DNA from: a virus
Direction: 5' to 3' (one strand)
DNA: 64,000 nt
IMG/VR virus record: IMGVR_UViG_3300013132_000034
Span: 33,368-97,367 of that record
Positions 13,887 to 56,603 of the stretch are shown piece by piece; position 1 is the stretch's first letter; the number at the start of each line of letters is the position of its first letter. The notes below the pieces were generated by a model, which had not been told where the DNA came from, did no database searches, and worked only from the letters and a program-made list of their open reading frames with translations. Position numbers and translations under genes: made by a program.

Positions 13887-13892
13887 ACTAAT

Positions 13893-13920
13893 ATTGTAAC
13901 TTTTACTTTTAATAATTCAA
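13893..13920 (-). promoter_or_regulatory. Sigma70-type promoter for dut/gp44
   Basis: TTGAAT(13920-13915)-16 nt-TACAAT(13898-13893)-6 nt-ATG. Confidence 0.7.
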
Positions 13921-13934
13921 CATAAATATATTAT

Positions 13935-14417
13935 ATGTCAGAAGATAACGGAGATATTGACGATATTATAGATGCTTTGAAAGAGAAAAATAGCGAGATA
14001 AAGAAAGAGGTGAGAAAATCAGCTAATAAAGATAATTTAGAAGAATATGTTATTGAGAGTGCTAGTACTGTAATCAATGAAGGTCTAGATTTAATTAAAA
14101 ACTTGGGTGTGTTTTTAAATGCGGCACCTGATGCAAAAGATCTGTCTGCATATTCAGAGCTATTGCAAGCTACGTCAACAGCAATAGAATCGTTAAATAA
14201 AATTATAATTCAAAACAAGAAAGGCGAAACATTAAAAGAGCTCAAAAAGATGGATTATGAACAAAGAAGAGATCTATTGGGTGATGCAAAGGAAGCATTA
14301 ATTAGCACGCGAGAAGAAATTTTTAAAAAAATGATTAAAAATGTTGAGATTATTGATATATCAGCCCAGACCACCGACAATATTTTGAGTGGTTCCGCAG
14401 ACAACAGTGTTAAGTAA
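13935..14417 (+). CDS. Putative small terminase subunit (gp16-like)
   Basis: Size and helical pattern (..VINEGLDLIKNL...AYSELLQA...LNKI...ISTREEIFKKM) resemble T4-type gp16; late TAAATA box 6 nt upstream. Confidence 0.55.
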   Translation: MSEDNGDIDDIIDALKEKNSEIKKEVRKSANKDNLEEYVIESASTVINEGLDLIKNLGVFLNAAPDAKDLSAYSELLQATSTAIESLNKIIIQNKKGETLKELKKMDYEQRRDLLGDAKEALISTREEIFKKMIKNVEIIDISAQTTDNILSGSADNSVK

Positions 14418-15950
14418 ATCTTTAGTAGTATTTTCTAAAGTTGCAAGAAGAGTATCTTGAAGCTGATTTAACGCGTCAGTTCTTGAATCTGCTGCTGCAC
14501 CGGGGTTATCAAATAATGAACCCAAGGAGAACGGTGGTAATGGTAAATTCATACCAAATATACTGCTTACAGAAGAAAGATCAATGCCGTTTATTGCATT
14601 TAATAATCCCTGTATAGCATCTCCGTCGGTCTCTTCAAAAGTTATATTAAAAGGATTTATTTTTTTCAATTCTTCAAATAAATCAAAATCAGAAGATGAA
14701 GCGGAAGAAAAGTTTGTTAGTGGATCTTCATTACCATTAAAGGCAGCTAAAGCACCGCCCATGCCAATACAATCAGTAATGCTTGAAGACCATGATGGAG
14801 CTTGATATGCGGGATATGCTATCGTACCATCGTAATGACTGAAACTCTTGGGTAGATTTGTATCTGATTTTTCAGCGTTTTCAGAAGCCTGCTCGTTGGA
14901 TGTTGTTTTGGGTTCTTCTTGTATCCCCGCATAATTGGTAACGTTTTTATCTGTATTATTCTCAGACAATTCGGCCTTACTAATACTCGAGAATAATTCT
15001 CTTGGATTTAATTCTTCTAATCTGCTAAATAAATTGTTTTTATATAATTTATCTAGTTCCTCAGTTGTTTTTTGTTTTAAATTTATTGTTTCGACAGCTT
15101 GTGTAGAAAGAACACTATCGTTAAAATATCGACTTTTTAAATATTTTATTTTATTGCTAAGCAAATCTACTTCTTTATCTACTTTTTCAACTTGCAATCT
15201 GAATGAATATTGCGTTACATAACTTAAATTTTGTGAATAATCTCTGTAATTTAAAGCTTCATTATCATTTATATTACAATATCTTAACAAAACTTTTATT
15301 TCATTCTTAAATAAATCTAAAAGTTTATCTACTGTTTTCTTTTTAATTTCAGAAACAGTTCTTGTGTAGTAACCCTCGTCAGTAACTAAATTAGTTCCGT
15401 GAGCAGTTTTAGATAAAGAAGAAGAATCAATGGGCTGTACTAACATTATATTGCTCCTATACATATTGTTTGTTCTAAAGCTAAAGCGTTGAAGAATTTG
15501 CTTTGTCCAGGGTGAAATTTTATTAATAGAATTATAGGAAAGGTAAAGTGGTGGCGGGGTTCTATTCATAGACCAGTCTGATATTGGGCTAATACTATCA
15601 TCAATAAGATAAGAAGCGTTAGTAAATTTACCAATACTATCGCTTTCTAATAATAAAGAAGATAGTTTAATTTCAGATTTTATATAATCTGGACTTGATT
15701 TAAATATTTCGTACCAATAAGACACGAAATCACTATCAAATTTGTCAAAATAATTTTGTAATTTATTAAAAAATTCTATTCTAGCTTCTACACTATCATT
15801 TTTAAAAAATGTAGATCTATAATTAAGAGATGTTTCTATTTGTTCAATAAATTTAGATAAAATAGTTAAATAGTTCGAATATTTTTCAAGTATGTATTTA
15901 GATGACGCTAAATTTATATCACAAATTTGTGGTATAATAGTTTTAATCAT
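14361..15950 (-). CDS. Hypothetical protein in the baseplate hub cluster
   Basis: 529-aa ORF coupled (ATGA) to the upstream hub gene; no recognisable motif. Confidence 0.7.
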   Translation of the reverse strand: MIKTIIPQICDINLASSKYILEKYSNYLTILSKFIEQIETSLNYRSTFFKNDSVEARIEFFNKLQNYFDKFDSDFVSYWYEIFKSSPDYIKSEIKLSSLLLESDSIGKFTNASYLIDDSISPISDWSMNRTPPPLYLSYNSINKISPWTKQILQRFSFRTNNMYRSNIMLVQPIDSSSLSKTAHGTNLVTDEGYYTRTVSEIKKKTVDKLLDLFKNEIKVLLRYCNINDNEALNYRDYSQNLSYVTQYSFRLQVEKVDKEVDLLSNKIKYLKSRYFNDSVLSTQAVETINLKQKTTEELDKLYKNNLFSRLEELNPRELFSSISKAELSENNTDKNVTNYAGIQEEPKTTSNEQASENAEKSDTNLPKSFSHYDGTIAYPAYQAPSWSSSITDCIGMGGALAAFNGNEDPLTNFSSASSSDFDLFEELKKINPFNITFEETDGDAIQGLLNAINGIDLSSVSSIFGMNLPLPPFSLGSLFDNPGAAADSRTDALNQLQDTLLATLENTTKDLLNTVVCGTTQNIVGGLG

Positions 15951-32538: not shown

Positions 32539-32938
32539 TTTTGGTATCTAGAACGAGTGGTGTTAAAGGTATGGGTTCAGTTACCGCAGCTGTTTCTGCA
32601 GTTATAATTATTGAATTATTCTTACCGCATGTGCCGCACTTATAAGAATTTTCTTGATTTAATACAACAGGCACAAACTCCTTAACTTTTTTATAGCAAG
32701 GACATTCAACTTCTATTCCTTGTTTAGAATATTCAGAAAGTGTTAAGGCTTGTATTTGTTTAAATTTTATTTCGCTTAAAAAATCAATAACTGACCCCAC
32801 AATATAAAAAATAACAAATTGCGCAATTGTAGTTACAAGAAATACCGTCCAAAAACTATGCGTAAATGGCATTAATATTAATGCTAAAAGAGTACTTACA
32901 ATACATGTAGTAAAAGTGCTTTTAAGTAAACTAAACAC
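32531..32938 (-). CDS. Membrane protein with C-terminal Cys (Zn-ribbon-like) motif
   Basis: Two hydrophobic N-terminal segments; CPC...CGTC. Confidence 0.65.
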   Translation of the reverse strand: MFSLLKSTFTTCIVSTLLALILMPFTHSFWTVFLVTTIAQFVIFYIVGSVIDFLSEIKFKQIQALTLSEYSKQGIEVECPCYKKVKEFVPVVLNQENSYKCGTCGKNNSIIITAETAAVTEPIPLTPLVLDTKNG

Positions 32939-32945
32939 AATCTAT

Positions 32946-34801: not shown

Positions 34802-34807
34802 AATACA

Positions 34808-36871: not shown

Positions 36872-37612
36872 TTAATTGACTAATGCCGATACTACATACT
36901 TACCGCTATATCCGGATTCTTCAAGGTCAAAAAGAAATACCCCAAGATTGCTATTAAATTTAACGTTTAATAAGTTAGATTTTGATGAGCTTATTAATCT
37001 TACAATTTCAAAATTTACAGCAACTGGTTGATTTATTTTGTCCCCAGCAAATTCATCCGAAATTTTTATGGCTATACTATCCACATTATGTCTATTGTTA
37101 TCAGTAAAATCACAAAATACGTTATTATTCTCAGTGTATAGATAGAGCTTACTAATATCTAATGCAATAGTACTTGCTTTTAAAATATTCTGTAAATCTA
37201 ATTTTTTAATATTGAAATTTGTAGAAAATTCTAAAGAAAATATTTTTTTTACATTAATTTTTGGTACTATGATAATACCATCTTCAAGCAAATGATATTT
37301 AAATTTAAAATAGTTACTTTTAAAAGATATATTATTGTTTTCTAAAGCTAGTTCTTGTGAATCTTCCTCAATACAAGAAAATATTTTAATTAATTTCTTT
37401 ACATCAGGTACATTAATAGTTACTAAATTATCATTTATAAAGTTATTCTTTTGACTTGTTGAGGTATAATATACAACGGTATTGTCATTATTACTACAAA
37501 CACAAAACGCGTTGTTTTTTTCAAAGCTTAGTACGCAACTATCGACTAATTTAGAAATACTAGTTAGATAACCGTTAGTAAAACTTTTTAGAGCTTCAAT
37601 TTTGAGAGCCAT
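36872..37612 (-). CDS. Sliding clamp (gp45-like)
   Basis: 246 aa, clamp-like beta-alpha-beta pattern (INVPDVKKLIKIF, FKYHL, YVVSAL); close to gp32. Confidence 0.7.
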   Translation of the reverse strand: MALKIEALKSFTNGYLTSISKLVDSCVLSFEKNNAFCVCSNNDNTVVYYTSTSQKNNFINDNLVTINVPDVKKLIKIFSCIEEDSQELALENNNISFKSNYFKFKYHLLEDGIIIVPKINVKKIFSLEFSTNFNIKKLDLQNILKASTIALDISKLYLYTENNNVFCDFTDNNRHNVDSIAIKISDEFAGDKINQPVAVNFEIVRLISSSKSNLLNVKFNSNLGVFLFDLEESGYSGKYVVSALVN

Positions 37613-37621
37613 TTATTGATA

Positions 37622-38038
37622 TTATATGTCTTTTTTTTTATTATCAAGAGCTTCTCTTAATTTAAATACTTCTGATTCTAATGAAATTACTTTGCGATAA
37701 ACATCGTCTATTTTTTGAAAAATTTCATTTAAATCATATTTTTTATCGAATGGTAAAAGCAATTGATCATCATTTACATTAGGAGCTGCTACAGTAACAG
37801 TTTGTAATACTGGTTGATGGCTAGGCTGTACCGCTTGTTGCTGTTGCGCATGTGATATTGGATTTATACCTTTAGATAAATCATGTTCTAGAGCAACTTT
37901 TTTAATGTCAAGGGATTCAGGTCTAATACGACCATCAATAATTTTTGAATCAATCTCATTAAGAGAACCTTTTACAGCGCCAAGAAAACTAACTAATGCT
38001 AAATTTTCTTGATATTCTTCCTGTGGTGTTTTAGTCAT
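37622..38038 (-). CDS. Hypothetical protein with QLLLPF motif and C-terminal coiled coil
   Basis: 138-aa ORF between gp32 and the clamp. Confidence 0.7.
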   Translation of the reverse strand: MTKTPQEEYQENLALVSFLGAVKGSLNEIDSKIIDGRIRPESLDIKKVALEHDLSKGINPISHAQQQQAVQPSHQPVLQTVTVAAPNVNDDQLLLPFDKKYDLNEIFQKIDDVYRKVISLESEVFKLREALDNKKKDI

Positions 38039-38873
38039 CTATACCATCTAAAAGTCTCTTAACTTCATCGTCATCAACTGCAGTTGTATCGGTGGTTGGT
38101 GATGCGGCAAGAGCGGGCTCTCTAGTAGAACTTTTCTTAGTATCAACAGACTCATCATTATTAGCTTCTATACATAGAAAATGTTCATCGAGAAGCTTCT
38201 TAAGATCATCATACGATTTTACTGGATTGATCTTCGCAAGATCATGTACACCATTAAGGACTTCTTTAATATTCTTATCATTTAAACTATCGATTGCCTT
38301 AGGCATAGAAAACTTAGAAGACACATATGTCTTGTATCCACCTTGTGTTTCACAAACTATCTTTAAATTAACACCATCAGATTTGAGCGAGAAAACACGA
38401 GGACCAAGGTCGTCAGCATCATCACCATCGATAGCGCGCATAACAATCTTGTGAAGTTGTTTACCGAACTGCAATATTTTAACTTTACCATTGTTATCAG
38501 GGTTAGTTGGGTCTTCAACTACATAAACATTAACTAACCATCTCTCTGCCCAAACTAATGAACTAGCTTTCTTCTTTTCATCTTCTGTACCGGAACGAAG
38601 AAGTTTGTATTTGAGTTCAGAGATTGGATCGCGTTCACCAAATGTTGATGGAGAAATAGCAGAAATAAATTTACCGGTAGCATAACTATTCCAGGAATGC
38701 TGAAAGTAATGAAAAAAGGTTTTTGACGGATCTGTAATATTAGGTAGAAGTCTAACAACATAAGTTTTATCAGATTCCATTCGCAGAATGTCGCGGTAAG
38801 ATGAATTGGTAGAATCCTGTCTAACAAGAGCGGTTTTTATACTTTCAAACATTGACTTGGTGATATCGTTCAT
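38031..38873 (-). CDS. Single-stranded DNA-binding protein (gp32-like)
   Basis: VRLLP, NVYVVEDPTNPDNNGKVKILQFGKQL, YVSSKF, KSYDDLK; acidic tail. Confidence 0.9.
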   Translation of the reverse strand: MNDITKSMFESIKTALVRQDSTNSSYRDILRMESDKTYVVRLLPNITDPSKTFFHYFQHSWNSYATGKFISAISPSTFGERDPISELKYKLLRSGTEDEKKKASSLVWAERWLVNVYVVEDPTNPDNNGKVKILQFGKQLHKIVMRAIDGDDADDLGPRVFSLKSDGVNLKIVCETQGGYKTYVSSKFSMPKAIDSLNDKNIKEVLNGVHDLAKINPVKSYDDLKKLLDEHFLCIEANNDESVDTKKSSTREPALAASPTTDTTAVDDDEVKRLLDGIDD

Positions 38874-38879
38874 AAGAAT

Positions 38880-38907
38880 ATAATAGTATGTTTTATATAA
38901 ATATCAA
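38880..38907 (-). promoter_or_regulatory. Sigma70-type promoter for gp32
   Basis: TTGATA-16 nt-TATTAT-6 nt-ATG(38873). Confidence 0.7.
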
Positions 38908-39536
38908 GCAATTTTCTTTAAACCTTCTCTTACTAATATTTTAAGTTTTTTAGACCTAATAAAATTATTATAAATATTGTCAGTATTTTCTAAAATGTTG
39001 CCTAAAATAAATTTATATGTTTCAAAATGTTTGTTAAGTTTAGCGACTGCATTGGTATATCCCATAACAGTATAAAGATTTATTTTATGTTCTTGTAAAT
39101 GTGTGATAAATGAAGGTAATGTTTCATCATTTTTAGTATAATCTAAATAATTTAAAACGCTTATATTATTTTCTTTGCAAAATTGTTTAATGAATTTAAT
39201 TGAATCTAATGTGTATTTTAGACAATCTTCACTATCCGGGTTACATGACTCGTTTTGATTTTTGTAAAGATTATATGCTTTTATAGCTTTAGGGCTTATA
39301 AAATACTTTAGGTCGAAAAATTTTTCGTCTTTATAAATTTTATATGGCGCATTAAAAAAATCATCTATATTAATTTTTTTAAATTTATTAAAAAATAAGC
39401 TTAGTTTTTTTACATAAAAAACAGTACTATCATCTAAGTCAGAAAAGTCTTTTCTTAAATTATAAGGTTTATTATTATTTTTTTTGTAACAGCTTAGATG
39501 TTTATTGTAAATAAATTTTTCGAAATCATTAAGCAT
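38904..39536 (-). CDS. Hypothetical protein, possibly gp59-like helicase loader
   Basis: 210 aa, upstream of gp32 as gp59 is in T4; similarity is weak. Confidence 0.5.
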   Translation of the reverse strand: MLNDFEKFIYNKHLSCYKKNNNKPYNLRKDFSDLDDSTVFYVKKLSLFFNKFKKINIDDFFNAPYKIYKDEKFFDLKYFISPKAIKAYNLYKNQNESCNPDSEDCLKYTLDSIKFIKQFCKENNISVLNYLDYTKNDETLPSFITHLQEHKINLYTVMGYTNAVAKLNKHFETYKFILGNILENTDNIYNNFIRSKKLKILVREGLKKIA

Positions 39537-39738
39537 TATAAAACTTCCACTTAAACCTAGATCTCTCTTTTTTAAGCTTCTTTAAGACTGAAGGTTTAGA
39601 CACTCTTCTCCTATATCTTAAATCCTCGAGAACTTCTGATTGCTTAACTTGTTTTATGAATGCGTTAAGTTTTTTATCAAAATATTCCTTATTGGTTGCT
39701 TTTTTTGTATCTAATTTTACTTCTGCGTTTATTCTCAT
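39529..39738 (-). CDS. rpsU: Phage-encoded ribosomal protein bS21 (divergent)
   Basis: 69 aa, basic; FDKKLNAFIKQVKQSEVLEDLRYRRRVSKPSVLKK aligns by eye with the bS21 pattern F..AL.RF...V...G.L...R.R....KPS..RK. Confidence 0.75.
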   Translation of the reverse strand: MRINAEVKLDTKKATNKEYFDKKLNAFIKQVKQSEVLEDLRYRRRVSKPSVLKKLKKERSRFKWKFYNA

Positions 39739-40924: not shown

Positions 40925-42259
40925 TCAATTATTATCTGCAAGAACTTTTAGGGTTGACGTCAAAGAATTACTTTCGTCCGTATCATTTATAGTGTCATCC
41001 TGGGTTATAGATAATGTGGGGTAATCTATTCTCAATAAAACGTTTCCGAAATTAGGGCCAAATCTGTTCTTCATCATACCTAGATGAATTACGCCTAATT
41101 CTCTTTCTTCATCTGTTTGAAAAATACTCATAACTACATCGGCGGTAGCTGCAAGACCTATACTTTCACTAATAGTAGCAATAGAGGGGTCATTCTCACT
41201 ATAGCCAGATCTGTTTAATTGAGTAGCTGAAATAATAGGGCAATTAAAAATATACGACATTGCTCTTATTTTTTCTGTTACATATTTTACTCTCTCATAT
41301 GAATTAGTGCCTGTAGAAGAATGAAGAAGGTTGAGATAGTCAATTACAATAGCGTCTATTTTAATACCTTTAGAAAGAAATTTTTTTATAAATGCATTTA
41401 ATTGTAATGGAGTAACTGTTGAGGGTGGAAATTCTTTTACATATATTTTTGCGTTAGGATTTTTTCTATTAAATTCGTCTATACCGATTTTTAATTGTTC
41501 TTGTTCACCTTTTAATCTAAAAAGAGGAATTTTAGTTAAGTTAGATGATAAGCGTTTTGCATAAATCAATTCTGGCATTTCAAGTGAAATAATGAGAACT
41601 GTTTTATTTTGCTTAGCTATATTAACAGCAATATTTGCTAAGAAAATAGATTTTCCGATATTAGTTTCACCTGCAAATACATATAATGACCTACCATTTT
41701 CTTGTAACCCCCCACCAATTCTATGGTCTATCCAAGGGTAACCAGTGGTAATATAATTTTCAACCTTATTAAGATCATCAACAATAGCTTGAGAGTTAGA
41801 TAAAATTTCAATACCGAGATCTACCGACAAATTTATGCTACAAGATGATTCAAATTTTTGTAATATTTCTGATGTATTTATTTCACCCTTTGTACACTTA
41901 TCAGCTACTTCTAGCATAGTGGTATATACGGCTTTTTCCTTTAAAAACCGCTCAGTATTTTTATAAAGTTCATCTTCATTAAAATTTTTGTCAATATCTT
42001 TAAATTTTGATATCGCTTCTTTAAAATTGTCTTTAAGCTTATCTGTGTTTAAATATGCTTTAACTTCAGTTAGAGTGGGTACTGTACCAGTTTTGATGTA
42101 AAATTCGCGAATTATAGAAAAAATACTTTTGATATTTTTATCTTTAAAATAGGTCGGTTTTAAGTGATCAGCAATAGAACCTAAATACTTTTCATCAGTA
42201 AGTGATTTGTATAGTACAATATGCTCGAAGTAATCTAGATCTAGTTCTCTATCTTGCAT
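40925..42259 (-). CDS. Replicative DnaB-like helicase (gp41-like)
   Basis: AGETNIGKS, ISLEM, KEFPP, IVIDYLNL, SATQLNRSGY, SESIGL, KNRFG. Confidence 0.95.
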   Translation of the reverse strand: MQDRELDLDYFEHIVLYKSLTDEKYLGSIADHLKPTYFKDKNIKSIFSIIREFYIKTGTVPTLTEVKAYLNTDKLKDNFKEAISKFKDIDKNFNEDELYKNTERFLKEKAVYTTMLEVADKCTKGEINTSEILQKFESSCSINLSVDLGIEILSNSQAIVDDLNKVENYITTGYPWIDHRIGGGLQENGRSLYVFAGETNIGKSIFLANIAVNIAKQNKTVLIISLEMPELIYAKRLSSNLTKIPLFRLKGEQEQLKIGIDEFNRKNPNAKIYVKEFPPSTVTPLQLNAFIKKFLSKGIKIDAIVIDYLNLLHSSTGTNSYERVKYVTEKIRAMSYIFNCPIISATQLNRSGYSENDPSIATISESIGLAATADVVMSIFQTDEERELGVIHLGMMKNRFGPNFGNVLLRIDYPTLSITQDDTINDTDESNSLTSTLKVLADNN

Positions 42260-42270
42260 AGGTTAAGCTA

Positions 42271-42298
42271 ATAATATAACAAATTATTTGATAATCAA
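42271..42298 (-). promoter_or_regulatory. Sigma70-type promoter for helicase
   Basis: TTGATT-16 nt-TATTAT-11 nt-ATG. Confidence 0.6.
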
Positions 42299-42969: not shown

Positions 42970-43616
42970 ACTATAAAAAATGGACTATTACCATTAAATT
43001 TTGATACTTTCGTTAATCCCTCTTGAGTTACTAAGAAGATAGTATTATTTTCTAATTCTTCCAATCCAATATCAGGGTAAGATGAAAATTCGCATTGTAA
43101 AAAGTTGCCGTAAAGAGTACTGCCACACCTCACGAGGTAAATATTTTTGCTTTGTGTGTTAAATATCCACAAGCTATAAGTGCCTTCTAAAATTTCGCAA
43201 ACGTTTCTTACTGTTGTTAATTCGTCTTTGTCTTCAAGAAAAGTAAGTAAACTTGGTATAATACTGCTATCTACTGAATTAACATGGTCGGGTAAATATT
43301 TTTGTTTTATTGTTTCGAAATTCGATAATACACCGTTATGCGCAACTATCCAATTACCATCAATAAATGGATGAGATGTATCTCTATTAAAGCTTCTTTC
43401 TGACGAAGTAGGGGCTTGTGTATGTCCAAGAAGATAGAAATAGTTATCTTTAAAAAAATTATCAATATCAACTACCCCGGGTTGCGCTTCACATAGCTGT
43501 ACATCTCGGTTTTGTGTTAAGAATAAGCACCCAAAAGCAAAATCCCCGCGCTCTCTATTTAAATTATAAAGAGTTTCAAACCTCTCTTTATCAGTAGAGC
43601 CGAAAATACCACACAT
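42966..43616 (-). CDS. Class II (Ntn) glutamine amidotransferase, stand-alone
   Basis: N-terminal MCGIFG nucleophile, RG, GHTQAPT, HPF, AHNGVL, VDS. Confidence 0.88.
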   Translation of the reverse strand: MCGIFGSTDKERFETLYNLNRERGDFAFGCLFLTQNRDVQLCEAQPGVVDIDNFFKDNYFYLLGHTQAPTSSERSFNRDTSHPFIDGNWIVAHNGVLSNFETIKQKYLPDHVNSVDSSIIPSLLTFLEDKDELTTVRNVCEILEGTYSLWIFNTQSKNIYLVRCGSTLYGNFLQCEFSSYPDIGLEELENNTIFLVTQEGLTKVSKFNGNSPFFIV

Positions 43617-43620
43617 AATA

Positions 43621-44358
43621 TTATAATGGTATACAGTTATAGGAATTCCAGCTTATTTCTTTTTTATAAGGTACTGGGTCAATATAACCAGCTTTAACAA
43701 ACCCTTGCAATCTCAAGCTACACGCGGTACATTCACCGCACGCTTCATCACCACCTTCATAACACGTCCACGTATTTGCAAAATCTATTTTATGGACAAC
43801 ACCTAAGCAAACAATTTCGGTTTTAGAACTATTTAAAAGCGGTGCTTCAACTTTTATTCGACACCGTCTATTTAAATTAGAAAGTCGATTAATTTCCTCT
43901 ATAAATTCTTTACTACCATCCCAATAACCTGCAATACTATCAGCTTGTGCAGCACCATGCCAAACTGCTGCAGCATTTAATGCTTCTGCACGAGCCAAAC
44001 ACATACTAATAATCATTAAGTTTCGAAATGGAACATAATTAACTGTTTGCGGATCTCCCATAGCATCTTTTGCCTTTGCCACAGAAATATTATTGTTTGT
44101 AAGTGAAGAAGTACTTGCAATATTTTTAAAAAATGAAATGTCAATAATATCGTGCGTTACATTATCTTCGCCAATTTTTCTTTTTATGCTTTCAATTTGA
44201 AGTGAAGCGTAATTTATTTCCTTTAAATGTTTTTGACTATAATTAAAGGTAATTGCATGGATTTTTTTATAATATTCAACTGCTTTGTGTAGGAGAACAG
44301 TACTATCCATTCCGCCGCTAACAGGAATAACAACTGCAGCTTCTTTATTTTGTGTCAT
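43621..44358 (-). CDS. queC: 7-cyano-7-deazaguanine synthase QueC family protein
   Basis: PP-loop SGGMDS, YSQKH, YVPFRN, TWTCY.G..ACGECTAC..R Zn site, DPVPY. Confidence 0.9.
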   Translation of the reverse strand: MTQNKEAAVVIPVSGGMDSTVLLHKAVEYYKKIHAITFNYSQKHLKEINYASLQIESIKRKIGEDNVTHDIIDISFFKNIASTSSLTNNNISVAKAKDAMGDPQTVNYVPFRNLMIISMCLARAEALNAAAVWHGAAQADSIAGYWDGSKEFIEEINRLSNLNRRCRIKVEAPLLNSSKTEIVCLGVVHKIDFANTWTCYEGGDEACGECTACSLRLQGFVKAGYIDPVPYKKEISWNSYNCIPL

Positions 44359-45499: not shown

Positions 45500-45903
45500 T
45501 ATTCTTCGTCATCAAACAACTTAATAACTTCAGCCTTGCTCTTACCGGAGCTATTTGCAACAGGCGAGTTACTAGCAATCGGAGTAGGATTGCCGCTAAA
45601 AATCTTCTCATATTGCTCAAGTAGACGGGGATCAAGCTGAATGCTGTCACCAAATACTAAGTTGTTTCTATTAAATGCCCAAACTGTTCCTTCTTTTTGA
45701 TTCTTCGGATCAACAAACTCTCTGAAGAAATAAGGAATGGTCTGTACTTGTAGTTGACCAGTCTGGGCCTGCTGTCCAATATGAACGATAGCAGGGTTTT
45801 TTACCTTTACAACCTCTTTTGTATCGGAGACAATTTCTCCGAGAATAACTCTTCCGATATGATCAACAAATGTTGAAACTGTTCTAGTAGTATTTTTGCT
45901 CAT
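45499..45903 (-). CDS. Hypothetical protein (Sm-like beta fold possible)
   Basis: GRVILGE...VKVKNPAIV...YEKIF pattern, common next to the polymerase in T4-like phages. Confidence 0.7.
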   Translation of the reverse strand: MSKNTTRTVSTFVDHIGRVILGEIVSDTKEVVKVKNPAIVHIGQQAQTGQLQVQTIPYFFREFVDPKNQKEGTVWAFNRNNLVFGDSIQLDPRLLEQYEKIFSGNPTPIASNSPVANSSGKSKAEVIKLFDDEE

Positions 45904-45909
45904 GTAATA

Positions 45910-45937
45910 ATTTTATTATATACGAACAATAAATCAA
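45910..45937 (-). promoter_or_regulatory. Sigma70-type promoter for the 45903-uvsX-queC-GATase-GT operon
   Basis: TTGATT-16 nt-TAAAAT-6 nt-ATG(45903). Confidence 0.7.
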
Positions 45938-48510
45938 GCTAAAAGTTCAAATAAATCGCATTGAACTTGTTTTCCAGGCTCAGTAGCCTTCCATTTTACA
46001 GCATCATACAATCTTTCAATACCGCTAAATATAATTTTATTAAACATTGTCTCATAATCAGGTTCAAAGATGCTAGAAAATTCTTTAGGATAATAATATT
46101 TAAAAGCTACTGACGAGAGACCATAAGGATTAGGTTTGCGCACATAAAAAAACCTAATCTTGTCACCAGAATTAATATGTTCGTATTTTTTCTCTATATT
46201 AAGCTTCTTTAGCAAAAAATTATAATAATAAGCAGCTTTAACATGATTAGGCATACCTTTTACTACTCTAAAATTATCACATTGTGCTGCGTATTTTTCA
46301 TAATTTTTAATACCTGACACAAACGAAATATCCTCAAGAGGTAATTCTTTAAATTTTTCGTATACTTCATTTAAAATTTTATTTGTCTCGACTTGATTTT
46401 TAGTAAGTAGCATTGTCTGTATAATTTTTTTAACATATGGTTTAATAGGCGTGGGCATTGTTGTACGTACTACCTCTACCCCAGTGTACTTAAACTTGTT
46501 GCATGGTATGCCTTCTTCGTCAAGTAAATGTAAGATATATCTTTTTTTCTGTAGAAATAAACCGACATCGGAAATAGCTTCTCGTTTGAAAACAAATCTA
46601 CAATCAACTGAATTTAAGGTATTGAGACCCCAAGTTTTGATGTGTATGTTTAAGAAATTTTCTAATTCTTCTACTATATCATGATATTCTTTAGTAATGT
46701 TTCCTTTTTTATCTATAACATCAATATTAAGTTTTTTAACTAATTCGTTCAATGTTACATACACACTGTCAGTGTCATTGTAAATAACAGGTTCAAAATT
46801 AAGTTCGGAGACAGATAATTTTTTTGAAATAAATTCTCGTGCTAAATCATTACACTGCTTAATAACTGCTTGACCAGTTAGCGTAATCGATGAGGCGAGA
46901 TCGTCATCACCTATGGGTGCGTGTTTGTTTCCGAAATAACCGTAAATTGTATTAATAAAAATTTTAATTGTATGTTGTTTTATATTAAGTCTATTAGTTT
47001 CAATTTGAATATCTTTATATTCTTGGGAGCCTTTTGTTAGTGTTGAAAGGGTTTTCTTTAATTTCTTCAAGTCATGTTTAATTTCTACGCGCTGAGAATA
47101 ATATCTGTCAACAATTTCAGGAATTATGCCTTTTTTCTTCTGCGAAAATAAAACTTTAGAACGTGATATTGACAGCTGTTCTTTTTTTACTAATTGCGCA
47201 AATTTTTCTTTAGTTAAAGTATATGAAGTCCCGTTTACATCTCTAAAGAGTACATTGCCATTTTCTTTGTCTATATTTTCAATTTTGCCCATTTTTGTTT
47301 CAGGAGAAAGATTCAGAGATATCATCGTATTTGGGTATAGACTATTAGCATCAAATGATACAATATGCTCTTGAAACCCTTGTTGTGGTTCACTAACATA
47401 AGCACCGGGATTTTTTTGTGTCTTGTCTTCGTTTCTAATAAATGTGGGTATTCTTTGTTGCCGGTATCTTGCGCGAATTGCGGTAGCTCCGGTAATTACT
47501 GACAAAGAACCCATTGCAGCTTCAAACGTTGTTAACCCTGTATAGGCCAACATTCTTAATAACTCTAGATAGCGTAATTTATCTTCAAGTTTAACTAAAA
47601 TTTTTACGTCTTGAATATTATAATCTACAAACAATTCCCAATTCTCATCTGCTAGAGAAGATAAATTTGTGTCGCCGTAGTCTACTTTTGATTCACCAAG
47701 TTCTATTTGCGCAATATTATCAAGTTTATAATTCTCTCTCTGTACCATGCAAAATCTTTTATACACATCCAAGTAATCAATAACAGAAATACCTTCAATA
47801 TGCCATCTTACTTGTTCATGACCATATTTTCCCCTTATACTCCTTGGATATAATTTTAGAACTGGTGACAGTTTCAACACCTCTTCCTCACCAAGTATTT
47901 TTTTAATTCGATTAATTATGTAAGGTATATCAAAAAATTCACAGTTCCATCCGGATAATATATCTGGATGATCAAGTTCTATATATTTGATAAATTTTTT
48001 TAATAATTCTTGTTCAGATTCACACTTAATATAGGTTACTCTGGGTTCTTTCTTTGTATATGATTTTAATCCCCATGTATAATAATGGTTATGTAAAGAA
48101 TCGTAAACTGTAATAATATTAATTACATGGTTTGCTTCTTCGGGTTTTGGGAATTCATCCGGGCTATATGTTTCTATATCTAATAAACATAATTTGAGAG
48201 GTTGAACGCTAAATTCTTTATCTTCATTTTTTTCCCAATATGAGTCAATCAAGTACTGCTGAACTGGCGGTGTATTTTCAAACACCCGAGTAACACCTCT
48301 TTTTATATATTCATTTCTATCATACTGTGTTTTAAATGAAATCTTTTTTAAATTAGTATTAAAGATTGACTTAATATCAGAATCGCCATTATTTTCTATA
48401 TAGAGATAAGGCCTGTATGTGGCGTCATAAAAGGTTCTATTACCATTTGTATCCCACGTGTATACGCGTACACTCTCATTTTTGGGAAGATAAACTGCAT
48501 TCCTATACAC
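45934..48510 (-). CDS. Family B DNA polymerase (gp43-like)
   Basis: Exo DIET, GWNCEFFDIPY, YNIQDV; Pol SFDANSLYP, KIFINTIYG, YNDTDS, KKRY. Confidence 0.97.
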   Translation of the reverse strand: MYRNAVYLPKNESVRVYTWDTNGNRTFYDATYRPYLYIENNGDSDIKSIFNTNLKKISFKTQYDRNEYIKRGVTRVFENTPPVQQYLIDSYWEKNEDKEFSVQPLKLCLLDIETYSPDEFPKPEEANHVINIITVYDSLHNHYYTWGLKSYTKKEPRVTYIKCESEQELLKKFIKYIELDHPDILSGWNCEFFDIPYIINRIKKILGEEEVLKLSPVLKLYPRSIRGKYGHEQVRWHIEGISVIDYLDVYKRFCMVQRENYKLDNIAQIELGESKVDYGDTNLSSLADENWELFVDYNIQDVKILVKLEDKLRYLELLRMLAYTGLTTFEAAMGSLSVITGATAIRARYRQQRIPTFIRNEDKTQKNPGAYVSEPQQGFQEHIVSFDANSLYPNTMISLNLSPETKMGKIENIDKENGNVLFRDVNGTSYTLTKEKFAQLVKKEQLSISRSKVLFSQKKKGIIPEIVDRYYSQRVEIKHDLKKLKKTLSTLTKGSQEYKDIQIETNRLNIKQHTIKIFINTIYGYFGNKHAPIGDDDLASSITLTGQAVIKQCNDLAREFISKKLSVSELNFEPVIYNDTDSVYVTLNELVKKLNIDVIDKKGNITKEYHDIVEELENFLNIHIKTWGLNTLNSVDCRFVFKREAISDVGLFLQKKRYILHLLDEEGIPCNKFKYTGVEVVRTTMPTPIKPYVKKIIQTMLLTKNQVETNKILNEVYEKFKELPLEDISFVSGIKNYEKYAAQCDNFRVVKGMPNHVKAAYYYNFLLKKLNIEKKYEHINSGDKIRFFYVRKPNPYGLSSVAFKYYYPKEFSSIFEPDYETMFNKIIFSGIERLYDAVKWKATEPGKQVQCDLFELLA

Positions 48511-48516
48511 AATTCT

Positions 48517-48544
48517 ATTATAAATGTATTTTTAAATATTACAA
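48517..48544 (-). promoter_or_regulatory. Sigma70-type promoter for DNA polymerase
   Basis: TTGTAA-16 nt-TATAAT-6 nt-GTG(48510). Confidence 0.75.
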
Positions 48545-49777
48545 GCCATTCACCTTATTAAGCAAGACTCTATCCTTATCAGCATACGGAAGGTTATAGA
48601 GTTCAAAATATTTGTTAATATTGTCATCATTTTCTAACCATCTTGTTTCAGCATGTGCATATGCCTCGCGACAAATATCCATATATCTTGATTTCTTTTC
48701 AAGAGTTTCATCAATTCGCTGAATCATTTCTGCTCCTGTTTTAAATCTTATTGGTGCATTACTATAAGTAACAAGATCTTGACAAGCAATCGGAATACCA
48801 TAACAACTGGCCTCAATATATTTTAGGTCACTTTTAGCTTTGTTAAAAGTATTATCTTGCAAAGGTGCAACCATCATATTAATGTCCAAATTATAAATTT
48901 TTTCAGGATATTTATAAAGCATTTCCCAAGGATGATATTCAAAAACACCTTGTGCAACAAAAGGTCGCAATGCTAGCGGAAACGCTCCTAAAAATACCCA
49001 CTGATATTTGTCTTTAGTATCGACAATAGCTTGTAATACGTGACGAAAATCATCGTTTTGATTTACCCTATTGTCAACATCAAAATGTGCGCCGGACCCT
49101 GCATATAATATGCGAGGCTTTTTGCGATGTGTATCATAATTTTTGCTTAATTTCTTCTCATTAAAAAAATGGCCCATCCACCACTTTGGTGGGTAGTTAG
49201 GTATTACAGTAACATTTTTATTACCTGTTTTATTCATGTAATATTGCTTCATGAAATCACATGTAACAGTAATTTCATCTGCCATCTGCATCATAGAAAT
49301 CGCATTATCTCTTATCTCATCATTTTTAAATGCAGGTTTAAATTTATTATATTCAGGTATATCTTCATGAAACATAATATCATCAATTTCATATATTAAG
49401 CGAAATCCTATCTGACTACTTAGTTGTTTAAGAAACTCAAAGAATTGTCTCTGATGATTAGTTGCTTGTCTCTGAATTCTAATAGCTTTGGTGTTACCAT
49501 ACCAGCGAGGATCAAAACACATCACTGTTGACATGTGTACAATAGCTTTTTGATGTGCACATAATAAATGACCTGGCCAAATCAATCGCCAAAAACCGCA
49601 CCCGCTATAATCTGCAAGATAGTTGATGGCGCGTGGTAGATTTGCTTCCGGTGGAACAGCAGGAAGATCCTGTGGAGAGGCAGGCATTATGCCAGGGTTG
49701 TTAGCTGGCATTATATTAGGAAATGGTGCAGCTGCAAACGGTGAAGCTGCAAACGGTGAAGCAAAAGGTGAAACCAT
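48539..49777 (-). CDS. GT-B fold glycosyltransferase with low-complexity N-terminus
   Basis: SGCGFWRLIWP, IQRQ, YEIDD, VIPN, APLQDNTFNKAKSDLKYIEA. Confidence 0.8.
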   Translation of the reverse strand: MVSPFASPFAASPFAAAPFPNIMPANNPGIMPASPQDLPAVPPEANLPRAINYLADYSGCGFWRLIWPGHLLCAHQKAIVHMSTVMCFDPRWYGNTKAIRIQRQATNHQRQFFEFLKQLSSQIGFRLIYEIDDIMFHEDIPEYNKFKPAFKNDEIRDNAISMMQMADEITVTCDFMKQYYMNKTGNKNVTVIPNYPPKWWMGHFFNEKKLSKNYDTHRKKPRILYAGSGAHFDVDNRVNQNDDFRHVLQAIVDTKDKYQWVFLGAFPLALRPFVAQGVFEYHPWEMLYKYPEKIYNLDINMMVAPLQDNTFNKAKSDLKYIEASCYGIPIACQDLVTYSNAPIRFKTGAEMIQRIDETLEKKSRYMDICREAYAHAETRWLENDDNINKYFELYNLPYADKDRVLLNKVNGL

Positions 49778-49784
49778 TGAAAAT

Positions 49785-49812
49785 ATATTATATTATGCCA
49801 TAAATAATTCAA
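49785..49812 (-). promoter_or_regulatory. Sigma70-type promoter with an opposite-strand late TAAATA box in its spacer
   Basis: TTGAAT-16 nt-TAATAT-7 nt-ATG(49777); plus-strand TAAATA at 49801-49806 serves gene 49817. Confidence 0.65.
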
Positions 49813-49816
49813 GGTA

Positions 49817-52518: not shown

Positions 52519-53564
52519 TTTAGTTTTTTATACAGCTCTACTGTATAATCTATTATCTCTTTTTTATTATTAATGTCAAGTATATTAACAAATTCTTCTA
52601 TTGCTTTAGGTATATCAACTCCGGAAAAATCACAATTATTTTCGTTACTAATACTGAATTTATTAAAGTTTGCTGCGTAGTCTACATTAATAGAGACCGG
52701 TTTAAGTATTGAAAGTTTCTTTAATAAGAAGTCAATTTCATCAGCTGTTATATTTTTATCAACAACAAATTTAACTATATTGTTGTTAAAGCTATCCTTA
52801 ACTTTATCAGTAATACCATTTTCTTTAACAAGCTCAGAAAGATATATTTTCTTATGCTTAGGATAGCAATTATTTTCAATAAATTCATATTTTAATGAAT
52901 CTAAGTCTAATATATGCACACCTTTCAAACTATCTACATCACCGAAATCCATTTGGAAAGGCGAACCAAGATATAATATAGTACCATCAGAATAAGTCCT
53001 TTCGTCTTTGAGATGGAAATGACCTGATATAATTAGTTTAGATTTTTCTAAAAGAGATGAAGCTTTAATACCGTGATCACAAATTTTATGACTATTCATT
53101 TTAAATGATTCGATTTCAAAGTGACCAAACATTATATCGCACTCTGGTATATGATTAATTTCAGTGCCCCAAGGTACAAATACTAAATTTTTATTGAAAT
53201 TACGTGATGCGAGTACTTGTGAAATAACTTTTATGTTGGGCCAGCCACTAAAGGGAGTTAATGAATTGATATCGGACCGATCTTTATAATATGCGTCATG
53301 GTTACCGACTAACATTACTATATTAAAATCTTTAAGTTTTTCTAAAAGTTTTGACGCTAAATGTATAGTATTAACGGAAATTTCGTCTCTATAATGAAAC
53401 AAGTCACCGCAAATTACAATATCTGTTATTTCTCTTTCTTTTAGTTCTTTACTAATCCAAGAAAAAAACTTTTCTGCAACATCGTACCAAAATATATTGT
53501 TTTGATGTACTCCTATATGAACATCAGAAAAACAACATATTTTCTTATTATTAATCTTAACCAT
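52515..53564 (-). CDS. Recombination endonuclease nuclease subunit (gp47/Mre11-like)
   Basis: SDVHIG, GDLFH, GNHD, GHFE, SGHFH, YLGSP. Confidence 0.95.
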   Translation of the reverse strand: MVKINNKKICCFSDVHIGVHQNNIFWYDVAEKFFSWISKELKEREITDIVICGDLFHYRDEISVNTIHLASKLLEKLKDFNIVMLVGNHDAYYKDRSDINSLTPFSGWPNIKVISQVLASRNFNKNLVFVPWGTEINHIPECDIMFGHFEIESFKMNSHKICDHGIKASSLLEKSKLIISGHFHLKDERTYSDGTILYLGSPFQMDFGDVDSLKGVHILDLDSLKYEFIENNCYPKHKKIYLSELVKENGITDKVKDSFNNNIVKFVVDKNITADEIDFLLKKLSILKPVSINVDYAANFNKFSISNENNCDFSGVDIPKAIEEFVNILDINNKKEIIDYTVELYKKLK

Positions 53565-54060
53565 TTAAGTTTGTAAAAATATCATTACTACCATCATCAG
53601 TTTCGTCAGTGGGTTTAATGTATATTTTTGCACCATCCGGACAAGAATGTAAGAGGTCTGAGTAAACTTTTTCCTTATAATCGTTAATAGCATCATGGTG
53701 TTTTTTTTCCTTTTTAATTCTATTTATAAATGCGTGAAATGCAATAGTTGTAAAGTATGAGAATGGGCTAAACCCGCTATTAATTTTAAATTTTTTATTT
53801 TTTAATGCGGAAAACATTTTTACAATAGCATCACCAACCATATCATCTTTATAGGTATAATTAATAAAATTAGGCGCATAACTTAAACCATGTGCTATTT
53901 TTGTTATTGACTCTCCTAATTTTTGTGAAATTGTACCTGCTTTATAGTAGATAACAATCTCATCCTCAAACTCTTTCGGATTGACGTAGAAAGGCTTTTC
54001 TTTTTTAACTTTCTTTTTCGGTGAAATCTCTGGCTGTGTAGTTGATTTTTTCTTTTTCAT
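53557..54060 (-). CDS. Late-transcription sigma factor (gp55-like)
   Basis: YVNPKEF, IAHGLSYAPNFINYTYKDDMVGDA, PFSYFTTIAFHAFINRIKKEKK. Confidence 0.93.
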   Translation of the reverse strand: MKKKKSTTQPEISPKKKVKKEKPFYVNPKEFEDEIVIYYKAGTISQKLGESITKIAHGLSYAPNFINYTYKDDMVGDAIVKMFSALKNKKFKINSGFSPFSYFTTIAFHAFINRIKKEKKHHDAINDYKEKVYSDLLHSCPDGAKIYIKPTDETDDGSNDIFTNLNG

Positions 54061-55471: not shown

Positions 55472-55866
55472 GTAGTTTCTAGTTTTTGTATTTCAATAAT
55501 ATTTTTAATATCGTACGTCATAGAAGATATAGTCTTTTCTGTTTTTTCTAATAACGTTATTAAAAGTTCTAATTGTTCTATTTCTTCTTTTAATTTCTTA
55601 ACACTGCTTACTTCATTTGCAGTCTCTGTTAAAGTATTGGGCGCAAGTCTAACCTGACTTTTTTCTTTTATTTGCTCAATAATTGCTTTTCTGTGACTTT
55701 CAAGTTCTTTTTGTTTTTCCGCTAGCAATATTTTGGTGCGTATTAAAAGACCAACATACTTATGTTTGATTGCTGGTAGTTTAAATTGTACTTCTTTTAA
55801 ATTAAGCTCATCAACTGTTACGTCTTTATCTATTTCTTCGAGTATTTTCGGAATATTAAGTTCCAT
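55468..55866 (-). CDS. uvsY: Recombination mediator UvsY-like
   Basis: EIDKDVTVDELNL...LPAIKHKY...MTYDIKNIIE; start moved to ATG 55866, 6 nt after TATAAT. Confidence 0.75.
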   Translation of the reverse strand: MELNIPKILEEIDKDVTVDELNLKEVQFKLPAIKHKYVGLLIRTKILLAEKQKELESHRKAIIEQIKEKSQVRLAPNTLTETANEVSSVKKLKEEIEQLELLITLLEKTEKTISSMTYDIKNIIEIQKLETT

Positions 55867-55872
55867 ATTTAA

Positions 55873-55900
55873 ATTATATAATAAGTTATAAATATTTAAA
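55873..55900 (-). promoter_or_regulatory. Sigma70-type promoter for uvsY-uvsW-gp55-gp47-gp46, overlapping an opposite late promoter
   Basis: TTTAAA-16 nt-TATAAT-6 nt-ATG; plus-strand TATAAATA ends at 55894, 6 nt before GTG 55901. Confidence 0.65.
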
Positions 55901-56155
55901 GTGAATAATTTTAATGAGCTTGTAAAACGAATACTAGAAAGCACAGGCGCATTGCCCGGAGTTACTGGTAATTTAGCGGGAAGCGGCGGGTCGCTTGGCA
56001 GTTTTCAGACATCCGGTTGGGTGTCAAATCCAGCGGGGACCCCAGGTACTGATGAATTTGCAAAAAATGATTTTAGAAAGCCTGTTGCTCTGGGTGCAAA
56101 AAAGGGCAAAAAAATCAAAATTCAAAGAAGACCATTGATACGTGGTGGTTTATAA
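55901..56155 (+). CDS. Small late protein with capsid-targeting-like N-terminus
   Basis: MNNFNELVKRILES; basic C-terminus. Confidence 0.65.
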   Translation: MNNFNELVKRILESTGALPGVTGNLAGSGGSLGSFQTSGWVSNPAGTPGTDEFAKNDFRKPVALGAKKGKKIKIQRRPLIRGGL

Positions 56156-56583
56156 TGGATTTAGGTCATTGGGTTTTAGCAGAAAATGTACAAATAGATG
56201 AAGCTGCTTTTGGATTTATTTATGAAATAACTAATACAGTCACAAGCAAAAAATATATAGGTAAAAAGCAATGTATTTCAAAAATAAAAAGAAACCCGCT
56301 TAAGGGTAAAGTAAATAAAAGAATTTTTAAAAAAGAATCTGACTGGAAGTCTTATACAAGCTCGTCAAATGAATTAAATGAAGATATTAAAAAGTACGGG
56401 AAAGATAAATTTATTTTTAAAATTCTAAAGGTATGTAATAGCAAGTGGGAGTTGGCATATTTTGAAATAAAAGAACAAATAGACAGAAACGTATTACTGA
56501 GAGATGACTATTACAATGGTATCATAAATGTAAGAATAGGTACTCCTCCGAATAATTTTAAAGAATCTATTGAAACAAGATAA
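56155..56583 (+). CDS. GIY-YIG-like nuclease domain protein
   Basis: GFIYEITN....KYIGKK, ESDWKSYTSS, YYNGII. Confidence 0.8.
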   Translation: MDLGHWVLAENVQIDEAAFGFIYEITNTVTSKKYIGKKQCISKIKRNPLKGKVNKRIFKKESDWKSYTSSSNELNEDIKKYGKDKFIFKILKVCNSKWELAYFEIKEQIDRNVLLRDDYYNGIINVRIGTPPNNFKESIETR

Positions 56584-56597
56584 TAATCATCTATACT
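56570..56597 (+). promoter_or_regulatory. Sigma70-type promoter
   Basis: TTGAAA-16 nt-TATACT-6 nt-ATG(56604). Confidence 0.7.
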
Positions 56598-56603
56598 AAA
56601 TTG

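What the first reader, a model, noticed from the sequence alone, without database searches (positions are those of the whole stretch)
13887..56603. Early/middle sigma70-type promoters place the transcription start on the start codon (leaderless mRNAs, 16-bp spacer)
Seen: ten promoters TT(G/T)www-spacer-TAnnnT precede dut (13886), 32938, primase (34801), gp32 (38873), helicase (42259), 45903, gp43 (48510), GT (49777), uvsY (55866) and 56604. Nine have a 16-nt spacer. The -10 hexamer ends exactly 6 nt before the start codon in seven cases and 7 nt in two, and there is no Shine-Dalgarno sequence. Known: sigma70 +1 is typically the 7th base after the -10 hexamer. Inference: these transcripts begin at or beside the AUG/GUG. 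The motif also argues against a Bacteroidota host, whose promoters are TAnnTTTG.
Basis: partly seen in the sequence, partly recalled or inferred. Interest (0 to 1): 0.8.

Follow-up and report, generated by a model that had tools for sequence, protein, structure and literature searches.

The report
Phage promoters fused to start codons
In this uncultured T4-like lake phage and its relatives, host-type promoters sit exactly one promoter-length before the start codons of the replication genes, with no ribosome-binding site. Their messages should therefore begin on the AUG/GUG itself, unlike in T4, although no RNA 5' end has been mapped.

Summary
All ten sites have TT(G/T)nnn-N16-TAnnnT (primase N15). 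The -10 box ends 6 nt (seven sites), 7 nt (two) or 11 nt (helicase) before ATG/GTG, and none has a Shine-Dalgarno.

It is not chance. Eleven of 105 genes on the 97-kb contig have this layout at 6-7 nt, against a mean of 0.57 (maximum 4) in 1000 dinucleotide shuffles.

It is conserved. In 53 distinct orthologous promoters from relatives (gp43 57-91% identical), the distance is 6 nt in 32 and the spacer is 16 in 44. The hexamers stay fixed while the spacers drift. A complete 217-kb relative shows the same layout genome-wide.

The reading is too narrow. T4-type late boxes (TAAATA) end 5-6 nt before 23 further starts. Nearly all other genes overlap or abut the preceding gene. SD motifs are at chance level (6/105, against 34/55 in a Pelagibacter myophage). 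A 43%-identical gp32 outgroup has a normal AAGGAG leader.

The best reading is a leaderless-plus-coupled expression programme. It is a known style (Actinobacteria, Deinococcus-Thermus, Thermus phage phiYS40) that I did not find reported for T4-like phages.

No RNA 5' ends are available, and the host is unresolved. Earlier notes from this scan describe the same layout in other uncultured T4-like phages.

The parts
13884..13920 (-). E-type promoter plus start codon of dUTPase: TTGAAT-16-TACAAT-6-ATG
   Evidence: Pfam dUTPase
32936..32973 (-). E-type promoter plus GTG start of a 135-aa ORF: TTGAAA-16-TATAAT-7-GTG
34799..34834 (-). It is the only in-frame start within 80 codons.
37610..37647 (-). 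Conserved in 6 relatives.
38871..38907 (-). E-type promoter plus start of gp32: TTGATA-16-TATTAT-6-ATG. The TGA stop of the upstream gene (38904-38906) lies inside the -35 box.
42257..42298 (-). Promoter of the DnaB-type helicase: TTGATT-16-TATTAT-11-ATG. This is the exception, with a predicted leader of about 4-5 nt. Relatives have 6-7 nt.
43614..43650 (-). Extra weaker promoter: TGGAAT-16-CATTAT-6-ATG, conserved in 4 close relatives. The 58%-identical relative has TTGAGA-16-TAGAAT-8.
45901..45937 (-). E-type promoter plus start of a 134-aa ORF: TTGATT-16-TAAAAT-6-ATG. The TGA stop of gp43 (45934-45936) lies inside the -35 box.
48508..48544 (-). E-type promoter plus GTG start of DNA polymerase gp43: TTGTAA-16-TATAAT-6-GTG. 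The TAA stop of the upstream gene lies inside the -35 box. It is the only in-frame start within 80 codons.
49775..49812 (-). It shares a 39-nt gap with the divergent gene at 49817.
55864..55900 (-). Promoter plus start of uvsY: TTTAAA-16-TATAAT-6-ATG (non-consensus -35, conserved as TTTAAT in relatives). It heads the coupled run uvsY-uvsW-gp55-gp47-gp46.
56570..56606 (+). E-type promoter plus start of a 188-aa ORF: TTGAAA-16-TATACT-6-ATG
53557..54060 (-). gp55-type late sigma factor. It is 44% identical to the annotated late sigma of Pelagibacter phage Mosig, and is the only sigma70 region-2 match in the contig. It is the likely reader of the TAAATA boxes.
39529..39738 (-). Divergent phage ribosomal protein bS21. 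It is context for SD-free translation; a link to it is untested.
   Evidence: note e1-5964374

Best explanation
These are working sigma70-type promoters read by the host RNA polymerase holoenzyme. The -35 box (TTGAnn) lies 16 bp upstream of a TAnnAT -10 box. That box ends 6 nt (range 5-8) before the start codon, so transcription begins on, or within 1-2 nt of, the A/G of ATG/GTG.

The resulting mRNAs have no 5' UTR and no Shine-Dalgarno. They would be translated as leaderless messages, with a ribosome and initiator tRNA recognising the 5'-terminal AUG/GUG. Downstream genes of each unit would be translated by termination-reinitiation, because they overlap or abut the preceding stop codon.

The same design applies to the late genes. 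A gp55-type TAAATA box ends 5-6 nt before the start codon. The phage clade therefore expresses essentially its whole genome without 5' leaders.

Shown: the motif geometry, its enrichment, its conservation, the absence of SD, and the presence of gp55.
Inferred: the TSS position and the mode of translation.
For: Geometry and enrichment:
- TTG-N18..20-TAnnnT ends at d=6 in 9 genes and d=7 in 2 genes of 102. Shuffles give a mean of 0.57 and a maximum of 4 in 1000.

Conservation:
- In 53 distinct orthologous promoters, the distance is 6 nt in 32, 7 in 6, 8 in 11 and 5 in 2. The spacer is 16 in 44.
- The hexamers are kept while the spacers and discriminators change.
- gp32 relatives of 48-49% identity still have TTGAAT-16-TAAAAT-6-ATG. 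The 43% outgroup has a leader with AAGGAG.
- The complete 217-kb relative has 26 genes at d=6. The strict pattern matches 32 times against 6 for the reversed control, including matches at 187-217 kb, where the called ORFs are mostly small.

Absence of SD:
- SD 4-mers occur before 6/105 genes here and 20/269 in the relative. The figure is 34/55 in Pelagibacter phage Mosig and 29-75% in other T4-like loci.

Who reads the -35 box:
- The only phage sigma is gp55 (region 2 only). No region 4 is found in the complete relative, so the host sigma must read the -35 box.

Position rules:
- The -10 box occupies -12..-7, and the T4 late box -13..-6 (PMC1524935).

Class partition:
- E-type boxes precede replication genes.
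- TAAATA precedes baseplate and tail-tube genes.

Weaker support:
- Position -1 is a pyrimidine in 74% (E, d=6) and 72% (L, d=5), against 55% elsewhere.
- Promoter-adjacent starts are ATG/GTG. Where TTG and GTG are adjacent (w60019-60024), the spacing selects GTG. This matches the RTG rule for leaderless starts in mycobacteria (PMC4633059).

Overall accounting:
- With slightly wider motif and distance limits, 85 of 105 genes are either promoter-adjacent or lie within 10 nt of the upstream stop.
Against: No RNA 5' end is mapped.

Distances of 8 nt (11 of 53 orthologues) and 11 nt (the helicase here) imply short leaders of 1-5 nt, not strictly none.

Four of the 11 E-type genes on the contig start with GTG. 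GTG is a poor leaderless start in E. coli (PMC4633059), so efficient translation depends on an unknown host.

Read-through from upstream units could also supply these genes as internal cistrons.

Folding energy of the first 36 nt does not distinguish promoter-adjacent genes from coupled genes.
Confidence: 0.8

Rival explanations
1. The promoters are real but the leaderless transcripts are a minor product. Most protein would be made from long polycistronic read-through RNAs, on which these genes are internal cistrons initiated without SD (A/U-rich, S1-dependent or reinitiation). The tight promoter-to-start distance would then reflect genome compaction only.
For: Gaps are very short (24-35 nt), and the stop codon of the upstream gene lies inside the -35 box, so compaction is extreme. 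I did not look for terminators between units. Internal genes clearly initiate without SD in this phage.
Against: Compaction alone would allow any distance from 0 to about 15 nt. The observed distribution is a spike at exactly the TSS distance, for two different promoter classes with different rules: 6 nt after TAnnnT and 5 nt after TAAATA. The spike persists across 48-91% identical relatives.
Confidence: 0.1
2. The A/T-rich boxes act in the RNA as a non-SD ribosome-binding signal, like the A-rich motif upstream of gene starts (about 9 nt in Bacteroides ovatus) that GeneMarkS-2 finds in Bacteroidota genomes. They would not be promoters.
For: There is no SD anywhere. The box-to-start distance of 5-7 nt resembles SD spacing. 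GeneMarkS-2 'group B' genomes have such motifs before all genes (PMC6028130). The phage has its own bS21.
Against: A -35 TTG at a fixed 16-nt spacing, conserved across relatives, has no meaning in an RNA that would have to start upstream of it. The boxes are absent from the 40% of genes that overlap their predecessor, whereas group-B motifs precede internal genes too. The two box types partition by gene class, as T4 early and late promoters do. TAAATA is the T4 late core, and a gp55 homologue is present.
Confidence: 0.05
3. The pattern is chance in AT-rich DNA, or an artefact of taking the first ATG/GTG after a stop codon as the start.
For: At 30% GC, TAnnnT is common. It occurs before 3-4% of all RTG triplets at any given offset.
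Against: Shuffles give 0.57 against 11 observed. Internal in-frame RTGs give 0 of 412 at d=6. Five genes have no alternative start within 80 codons. Protein similarity to relatives begins at codon 1, and upstream conservation is limited to the hexamers.
Confidence: 0.02

Closest known systems
Leaderless genes of Actinobacteria and Deinococcus-Thermus ('-10 region adjacent to ORFs'; GeneMarkS-2 group C; PMC12340547, PMC6028130, PMC4633059)
   Same: A Pribnow box lies 6-8 nt before the start codon, with no SD. ATG or GTG sits at the mRNA 5' end.
   Different: In those bacteria only 25-50% of operons are leaderless, and the other genes keep SD sites. Here SD is absent throughout. A strong -35 box with a 16-nt spacer is present, and the carrier is a T4-like phage of about 30-42% GC.
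Thermus thermophilus phage phiYS40 (most middle/late mRNAs leaderless; as summarised in PMC3594737 and PMC4842269; the primary paper was not held)
   Same: A large phage whose own transcripts mostly lack leaders. This is a precedent for a phage-wide leaderless programme.
   Different: phiYS40 is not T4-like. Its leaderless promoters have an extended -10 TGnTA and its host is itself rich in leaderless genes. Here the E-type boxes have no TGn but a clear -35 box. The late class uses the T4 gp55-type TAAATA box. Early genes are included.
Phage T4 early and late promoters (sigma70 -10 box at -12..-7; late TATAAATA at -13..-6, read by gp55 with gp33 and the gp45 clamp; PMC1524935)
   Same: The same two promoter types are present, along with a gp55 homologue and the same partition between replication and structural genes.
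   Different: T4 transcripts carry 5' leaders with SD sequences (own knowledge). The SD-using T4-like controls analysed here show no promoter box at 5-7 nt. Here the boxes abut the start codons.
Lambda cI mRNA from PRM (PMC10491246)
   Same: A phage mRNA that starts on its AUG and is translated without SD.
   Different: That is a single regulatory gene in an SD-using genome, not a genome-wide design.

Membership tests
Sigma70-type (-35/-10) promoter | TTGACA-like -35 box and TAnnnT -10 box separated by 16-18 bp | tested here: met
   All ten sites meet it. The spacer is 16 in nine and 15 in one. In relatives the spacer is 16 in 44 of 53.
Sigma70-type (-35/-10) promoter | Hexamers under selection: conserved while the flanking and spacer sequence drifts | tested here: met
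   Orthologous promoters of gp43, gp32, w45903, GT, uvsY and w56604.
Sigma70-type (-35/-10) promoter | Directs initiation by the RNA polymerase holoenzyme | not testable with these tools
   This needs in vitro transcription or 5'-end mapping.
Leaderless mRNA (sequence criterion: -10 box adjacent to the ORF) | The -10 box ends 6-8 nt before the start codon | tested here: met
   Histogram spike at d=6.
Leaderless mRNA (sequence criterion: -10 box adjacent to the ORF) | No Shine-Dalgarno before the start codon | tested here: met
   0 of 10 sites. 6/105 genes genome-wide, against 34/55 in the Mosig control.
Leaderless mRNA (sequence criterion: -10 box adjacent to the ORF) | The primary 5' end is mapped on the start codon | not testable with these tools
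   No RNA data are available.
T4-type late promoter (for the companion TAAATA class) | TATAAATA core at -13..-6 with no -35 box | tested here: met
   TAAATA ends 5 nt (14 genes) or 6 nt (9 genes) before start codons, against 0.86 expected. The position rule is from PMC1524935.
T4-type late promoter (for the companion TAAATA class) | A phage gp55 sigma is present | tested here: met
   w53557-54060 is 44% identical to the Mosig late sigma and gives a weak Sigma70_r2 match.
T4-type late promoter (for the companion TAAATA class) | gp33 co-activator and gp45 clamp are present | tested here: inconclusive
   Mosig gp45 gave no blastp hit on this 46%-complete contig. gp33 was not searched.
Bacteroidota sigmaA promoter | -7 box TAnnTTTG at -12..-5 (PMC9723704) | tested here: not met
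   Positions -8..-5 of the E-type boxes read A-T-n-n. TAnnTTTG shows no positional enrichment before genes in G000 or in the complete relative.
phiYS40-type leaderless promoter | Extended -10 box (TGnTA) without a -35 box (PMC4842269) | tested here: not met
   No TGn precedes the -10 boxes, and a -35 box is present.

The most novel reading that the evidence does not exclude
The clade has given up Shine-Dalgarno initiation altogether. It uses only two SD-independent modes: a 5'-terminal AUG/GUG, and termination-reinitiation. It may do this because it infects a host with a canonical sigma70 and ordinary SD-dependent translation, and then disables or re-tunes that pathway, for example through its own bS21. 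That would be a translation takeover in which only phage messages remain readable.
Probability: 0.12. Interest if true: 0.85.

Novelty: new variant of a known kind. Interest (0 to 1): 0.6.

Why it matters
T4 is the textbook case of phage gene expression with leadered, SD-bearing mRNAs and translational repressors that act on those leaders. A widespread freshwater T4-like lineage appears to have no 5' UTRs at all, in both the host-sigma class and the gp55 class, with stop codons nested in -35 boxes.

If this holds, it has several consequences:
- Transcription and translation start sites can be fused genome-wide in a large phage.
- Leader-based controls (RegA-type repression, RegB-type SD cleavage) cannot operate as they do in T4.
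- The phage's host must translate 5'-terminal AUG and GUG efficiently.
- There is a simple sequence rule for start-codon annotation in such metagenomic phages.
- The E-type cassette (34 nt from the -35 box to the start codon) is a natural minimal expression unit.

Tried and rejected
RNA evidence:
- The one metagenome scan (gp32) returned 13 loci, and none ended at the start codon. No transcript-end evidence was obtained.

Host:
- No close relative was found in 185,579 species genomes.
- There are no tRNAs in the window.
- No T9SS sorting domain, whiB or psbA-type reaction-centre protein was found in this contig or in the complete relative.
- bS21 matches solved bS21 chains only weakly (best E = 0.01), with no phylum signal. 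Its nearest Atlas clusters are viral.
- TerL and gp43 are at most 38% and 32% identical to those of cultured phages: Sinorhizobium/Rhizobium phages for TerL; cyanophages, Sinorhizobium and Pelagibacter phages for gp43.

Takeover idea:
- No RegB or MazF/PemK nuclease was found. The RegB search had no positive control.
- GGAG is not avoided in coding sequence.

Structure:
- The first 36 nt of promoter-adjacent genes fold less stably than internal ATG windows (p = 3e-4), but no differently from coupled genes. The test is therefore uninformative.

A SAR11-type (Pelagibacter) host looks unlikely, because a pelagimyophage uses SD. An actinobacterial or cyanobacterial host lacks the usual marker genes (no whiB, no psbA) but is not excluded.
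Full report
**What the DNA is.** The window is bases 33368-97367 of a 97,367-bp IMG/VR virus record. CheckV rates it 46% complete. GC content is about 30%. It is a divergent T4-like phage. Pfam finds dUTPase, gp32, a DnaB-type helicase, a family-B polymerase and UvsY. Local BLAST with annotated proteins of Pelagibacter phage Mosig finds gp55, UvsW, gp46, gp47, gp44, portal, sheath, TerL and tube. gp43 is only about 31% identical to any cultured phage.

**The observation.** All ten sites are as described. Nine have a 16-nt spacer; the primase has 15. Seven have 6 nt between the -10 box and the start codon, and two have 7. The helicase has 11. None has an SD 4-mer. Two further sites in the window (w37612, w43616) and two or three outside it (contig 6031, 32289, perhaps 22975) follow the same plan.

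**Is it chance?** No.
- I called genes mechanically, using a codon-usage score and taking the first ATG/GTG. Of 102 genes, 9 have the full motif at distance 6 and 2 at distance 7. At almost every other offset from 0 to 30 the count is 0-1, and never more than 3.
- Internal in-frame RTGs give 0 of 412 at d=6. All 4679 RTG triplets give about 0.2% per offset.
- One thousand dinucleotide shuffles of the 45-nt upstream regions give a mean of 0.57 and a maximum of 4, against 11 observed. For the window alone it is 0.38 against 9.

**Are the start codons right?**
- Five of the ten genes have no other in-frame start in the first 80 codons.
- The DnaB N-domain, dUTPase and UvsY Pfam matches begin 9-13 residues into the proteins.
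- Residue 32 of gp43 aligns with residue 31 of Mosig gp43.
- For uvsY the mechanical first start (GTG at w55944) is wrong. The Pfam match, the Mosig alignment and the relatives all support ATG at w55866.

**Relatives.** The viral collection holds seven loci of the same clade, with gp43 57-91% identical. The metagenome collection adds nine, with gp32 48-83% identical.
- I anchored orthologues by tblastn from codon 1. Among 53 distinct promoter sequences, the -10-to-start distance is 6 nt in 32, 7 in 6, 8 in 11 and 5 in 2. The spacer is 16 in 44, 15 in 7 and 17 in 2.
- The hexamers are retained while the spacers and discriminators diverge. One example is gp43, where TTGTAA/TATAAT or TATTAT is kept but the 16 nt between them differ.
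- The relatives' helicase promoters have the canonical 6-7 nt, so the 11 nt here is a local change.
- The relative L002 lies on a complete 217,413-bp genome. I fetched it whole. Of its 269 genes, 26 have the E-type motif at d=6, 36 have TAAATA at d=5 and 14 have it at d=6. SD 4-mers occur before 20 genes.
- The strict pattern matches 32 times, against 6 for the reversed control. Many of the matches lie at 187-217 kb, where the called ORFs are mostly small.

**Contrast groups.**
- The Pelagibacter myophage Mosig has SD 4-mers before 34 of 55 genes and no spike.
- Eight other T4-like loci, 27-32% identical in gp43, have SD before 29-75% of genes.
- The nearest gp32 outgroup (43% identity, including an activated-sludge contig) has an ordinary leader with AAGGAG 6 nt before the ATG.
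- The SD-free, leaderless layout is therefore a derived character of this clade.

**Wider picture in this genome.**
- TAAATA, the core of the T4 late box, ends 5 nt before 14 starts and 6 nt before 9. Shuffles give a mean of 0.86 and a maximum of 5.
- T4's TATAAATA spans -13..-6, and the sigma70 -10 box spans -12..-7 (PMC1524935). TAAATA-N5 and TAnnnT-N6 therefore both put +1 on the first base of the start codon.
- TAAATA genes with a family match are baseplate and tail-tube genes. E-type genes are replication genes. A gp55 homologue is present.
- With slightly wider limits on the motifs and distances, 43 genes are promoter-adjacent and 42 lie within 10 nt of the upstream stop on the same strand. 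Of the remaining 20, several are spurious antisense ORFs, mis-chosen starts or degenerate boxes.
- Upstream stop codons are nested in the -35 box (T-TGA-TA, TTG-TAA). This gives gaps of 28-30 nt. Note e1-5902621 had pointed to this in a related genome.

**Mechanism.** Most likely (about 0.8), the host holoenzyme initiates on the start-codon purine, and the mRNAs are translated as leaderless messages. Downstream cistrons would be translated by reinitiation. Weak extra support:
- A pyrimidine at -1 in 74% and 72% of the d=6 E and d=5 L genes, against 55% elsewhere.
- Exclusive use of ATG/GTG at promoter-adjacent starts, as in mycobacteria (PMC4633059).

The distances of 8 and 11 nt imply that some leaders are 1-5 nt long.

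**Who reads the -35 box?** The complete relative contains no sigma region 4, and its only region 2 match is in gp55. A host sigma70 must therefore read TTGAnn-16-TAnnAT. TAnnTTTG, the Bacteroidota -7 box (PMC9723704), is not positioned before genes.

Two things point the other way. Total absence of SD is typical of FCB-group/Bacteroidota genomes (PMC6028130). Lake phages with bS21 have been assigned to Bacteroidota hosts (PMC9723584). Flavobacteria themselves have only about 5.5% leaderless mRNAs (PMC9723704). I could not resolve the host.

**Novelty.** Leaderless genes defined by a -10 box next to the ORF are well known in Actinobacteria and Deinococcus-Thermus (PMC6028130, PMC12340547). Thermus phage phiYS40 makes mostly leaderless middle/late mRNAs (PMC3594737). 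My literature searches found no such description for T4-like phages. phiKZ has no leaderless transcripts (PMC8244752). This is therefore a new variant of a known kind.

The scan's earlier AI notes report the same layout in other uncultured T4-like phages. I used them as leads only.

Noticed in passing
window 460-60022 (for example starts at 2192, 6097, 11875, 11937, 13935, 17921, 19230, 21919, 23748, 24322, 30047, 35024, 57182, 59314, 60022): The T4-type late core TAAATA ends 5-6 nt before 15 start codons in the window (23 on the contig), against about 0.5 expected. The late genes therefore look leaderless too. Several of these boxes use the upstream gene's TAA stop as their first three bases (8-nt gaps).
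   Followed up: yes
window 38904-38906, 45934-45936, 48539-48541, 42295-42297: The stop codon of the upstream gene lies inside the -35 hexamer of the next promoter (T-TGA-TA, TTG-TAA). This gives fixed intergenic gaps of 28-30 nt, or 35 nt at the helicase.
   Followed up: yes
window 13887-13934 and 49778-49816: Two divergent gene pairs share gaps of only 48 nt and 39 nt. Each gap holds an E-type promoter on the minus strand and a TAAATA box on the plus strand, and the two overlap each other.
   Followed up: partly
window 17923-19230 (-): A 435-aa gene sits behind a perfect TATAAATA-N6-ATG in the structural block. It has no tblastn match in 50,697 cultured phage records and no PHROG family. It may be a very divergent major virion protein.
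   Followed up: partly
window 39529-39738 (-): A very divergent phage bS21. The best solved-structure match has E = 0.01, and the nearest Atlas clusters are all viral S21. It lies in the replication block, in a genome without any SD sequence.
   Followed up: partly
window 42260-42270: The helicase promoter has 11 nt between the -10 box and the ATG, where the three distinct relatives have 6-7 nt. This looks like a recent insertion of about 5 nt that creates the only short leader in the set.
   Followed up: partly
L084-L087 (gp32 43% identical; one contig from activated sludge): The nearest outgroup of the clade has a normal gp32 leader with AAGGAG 6 nt before the ATG. This brackets where the SD-free layout arose.
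   Followed up: partly
L062 (IMGVR_UViG_3300033121_000875): Another distant T4-like locus is SD-poor (3 of 28 genes). It has A-rich stretches before starts and no promoter box at 5-7 nt, so it represents a different SD-free style.
   Followed up: no
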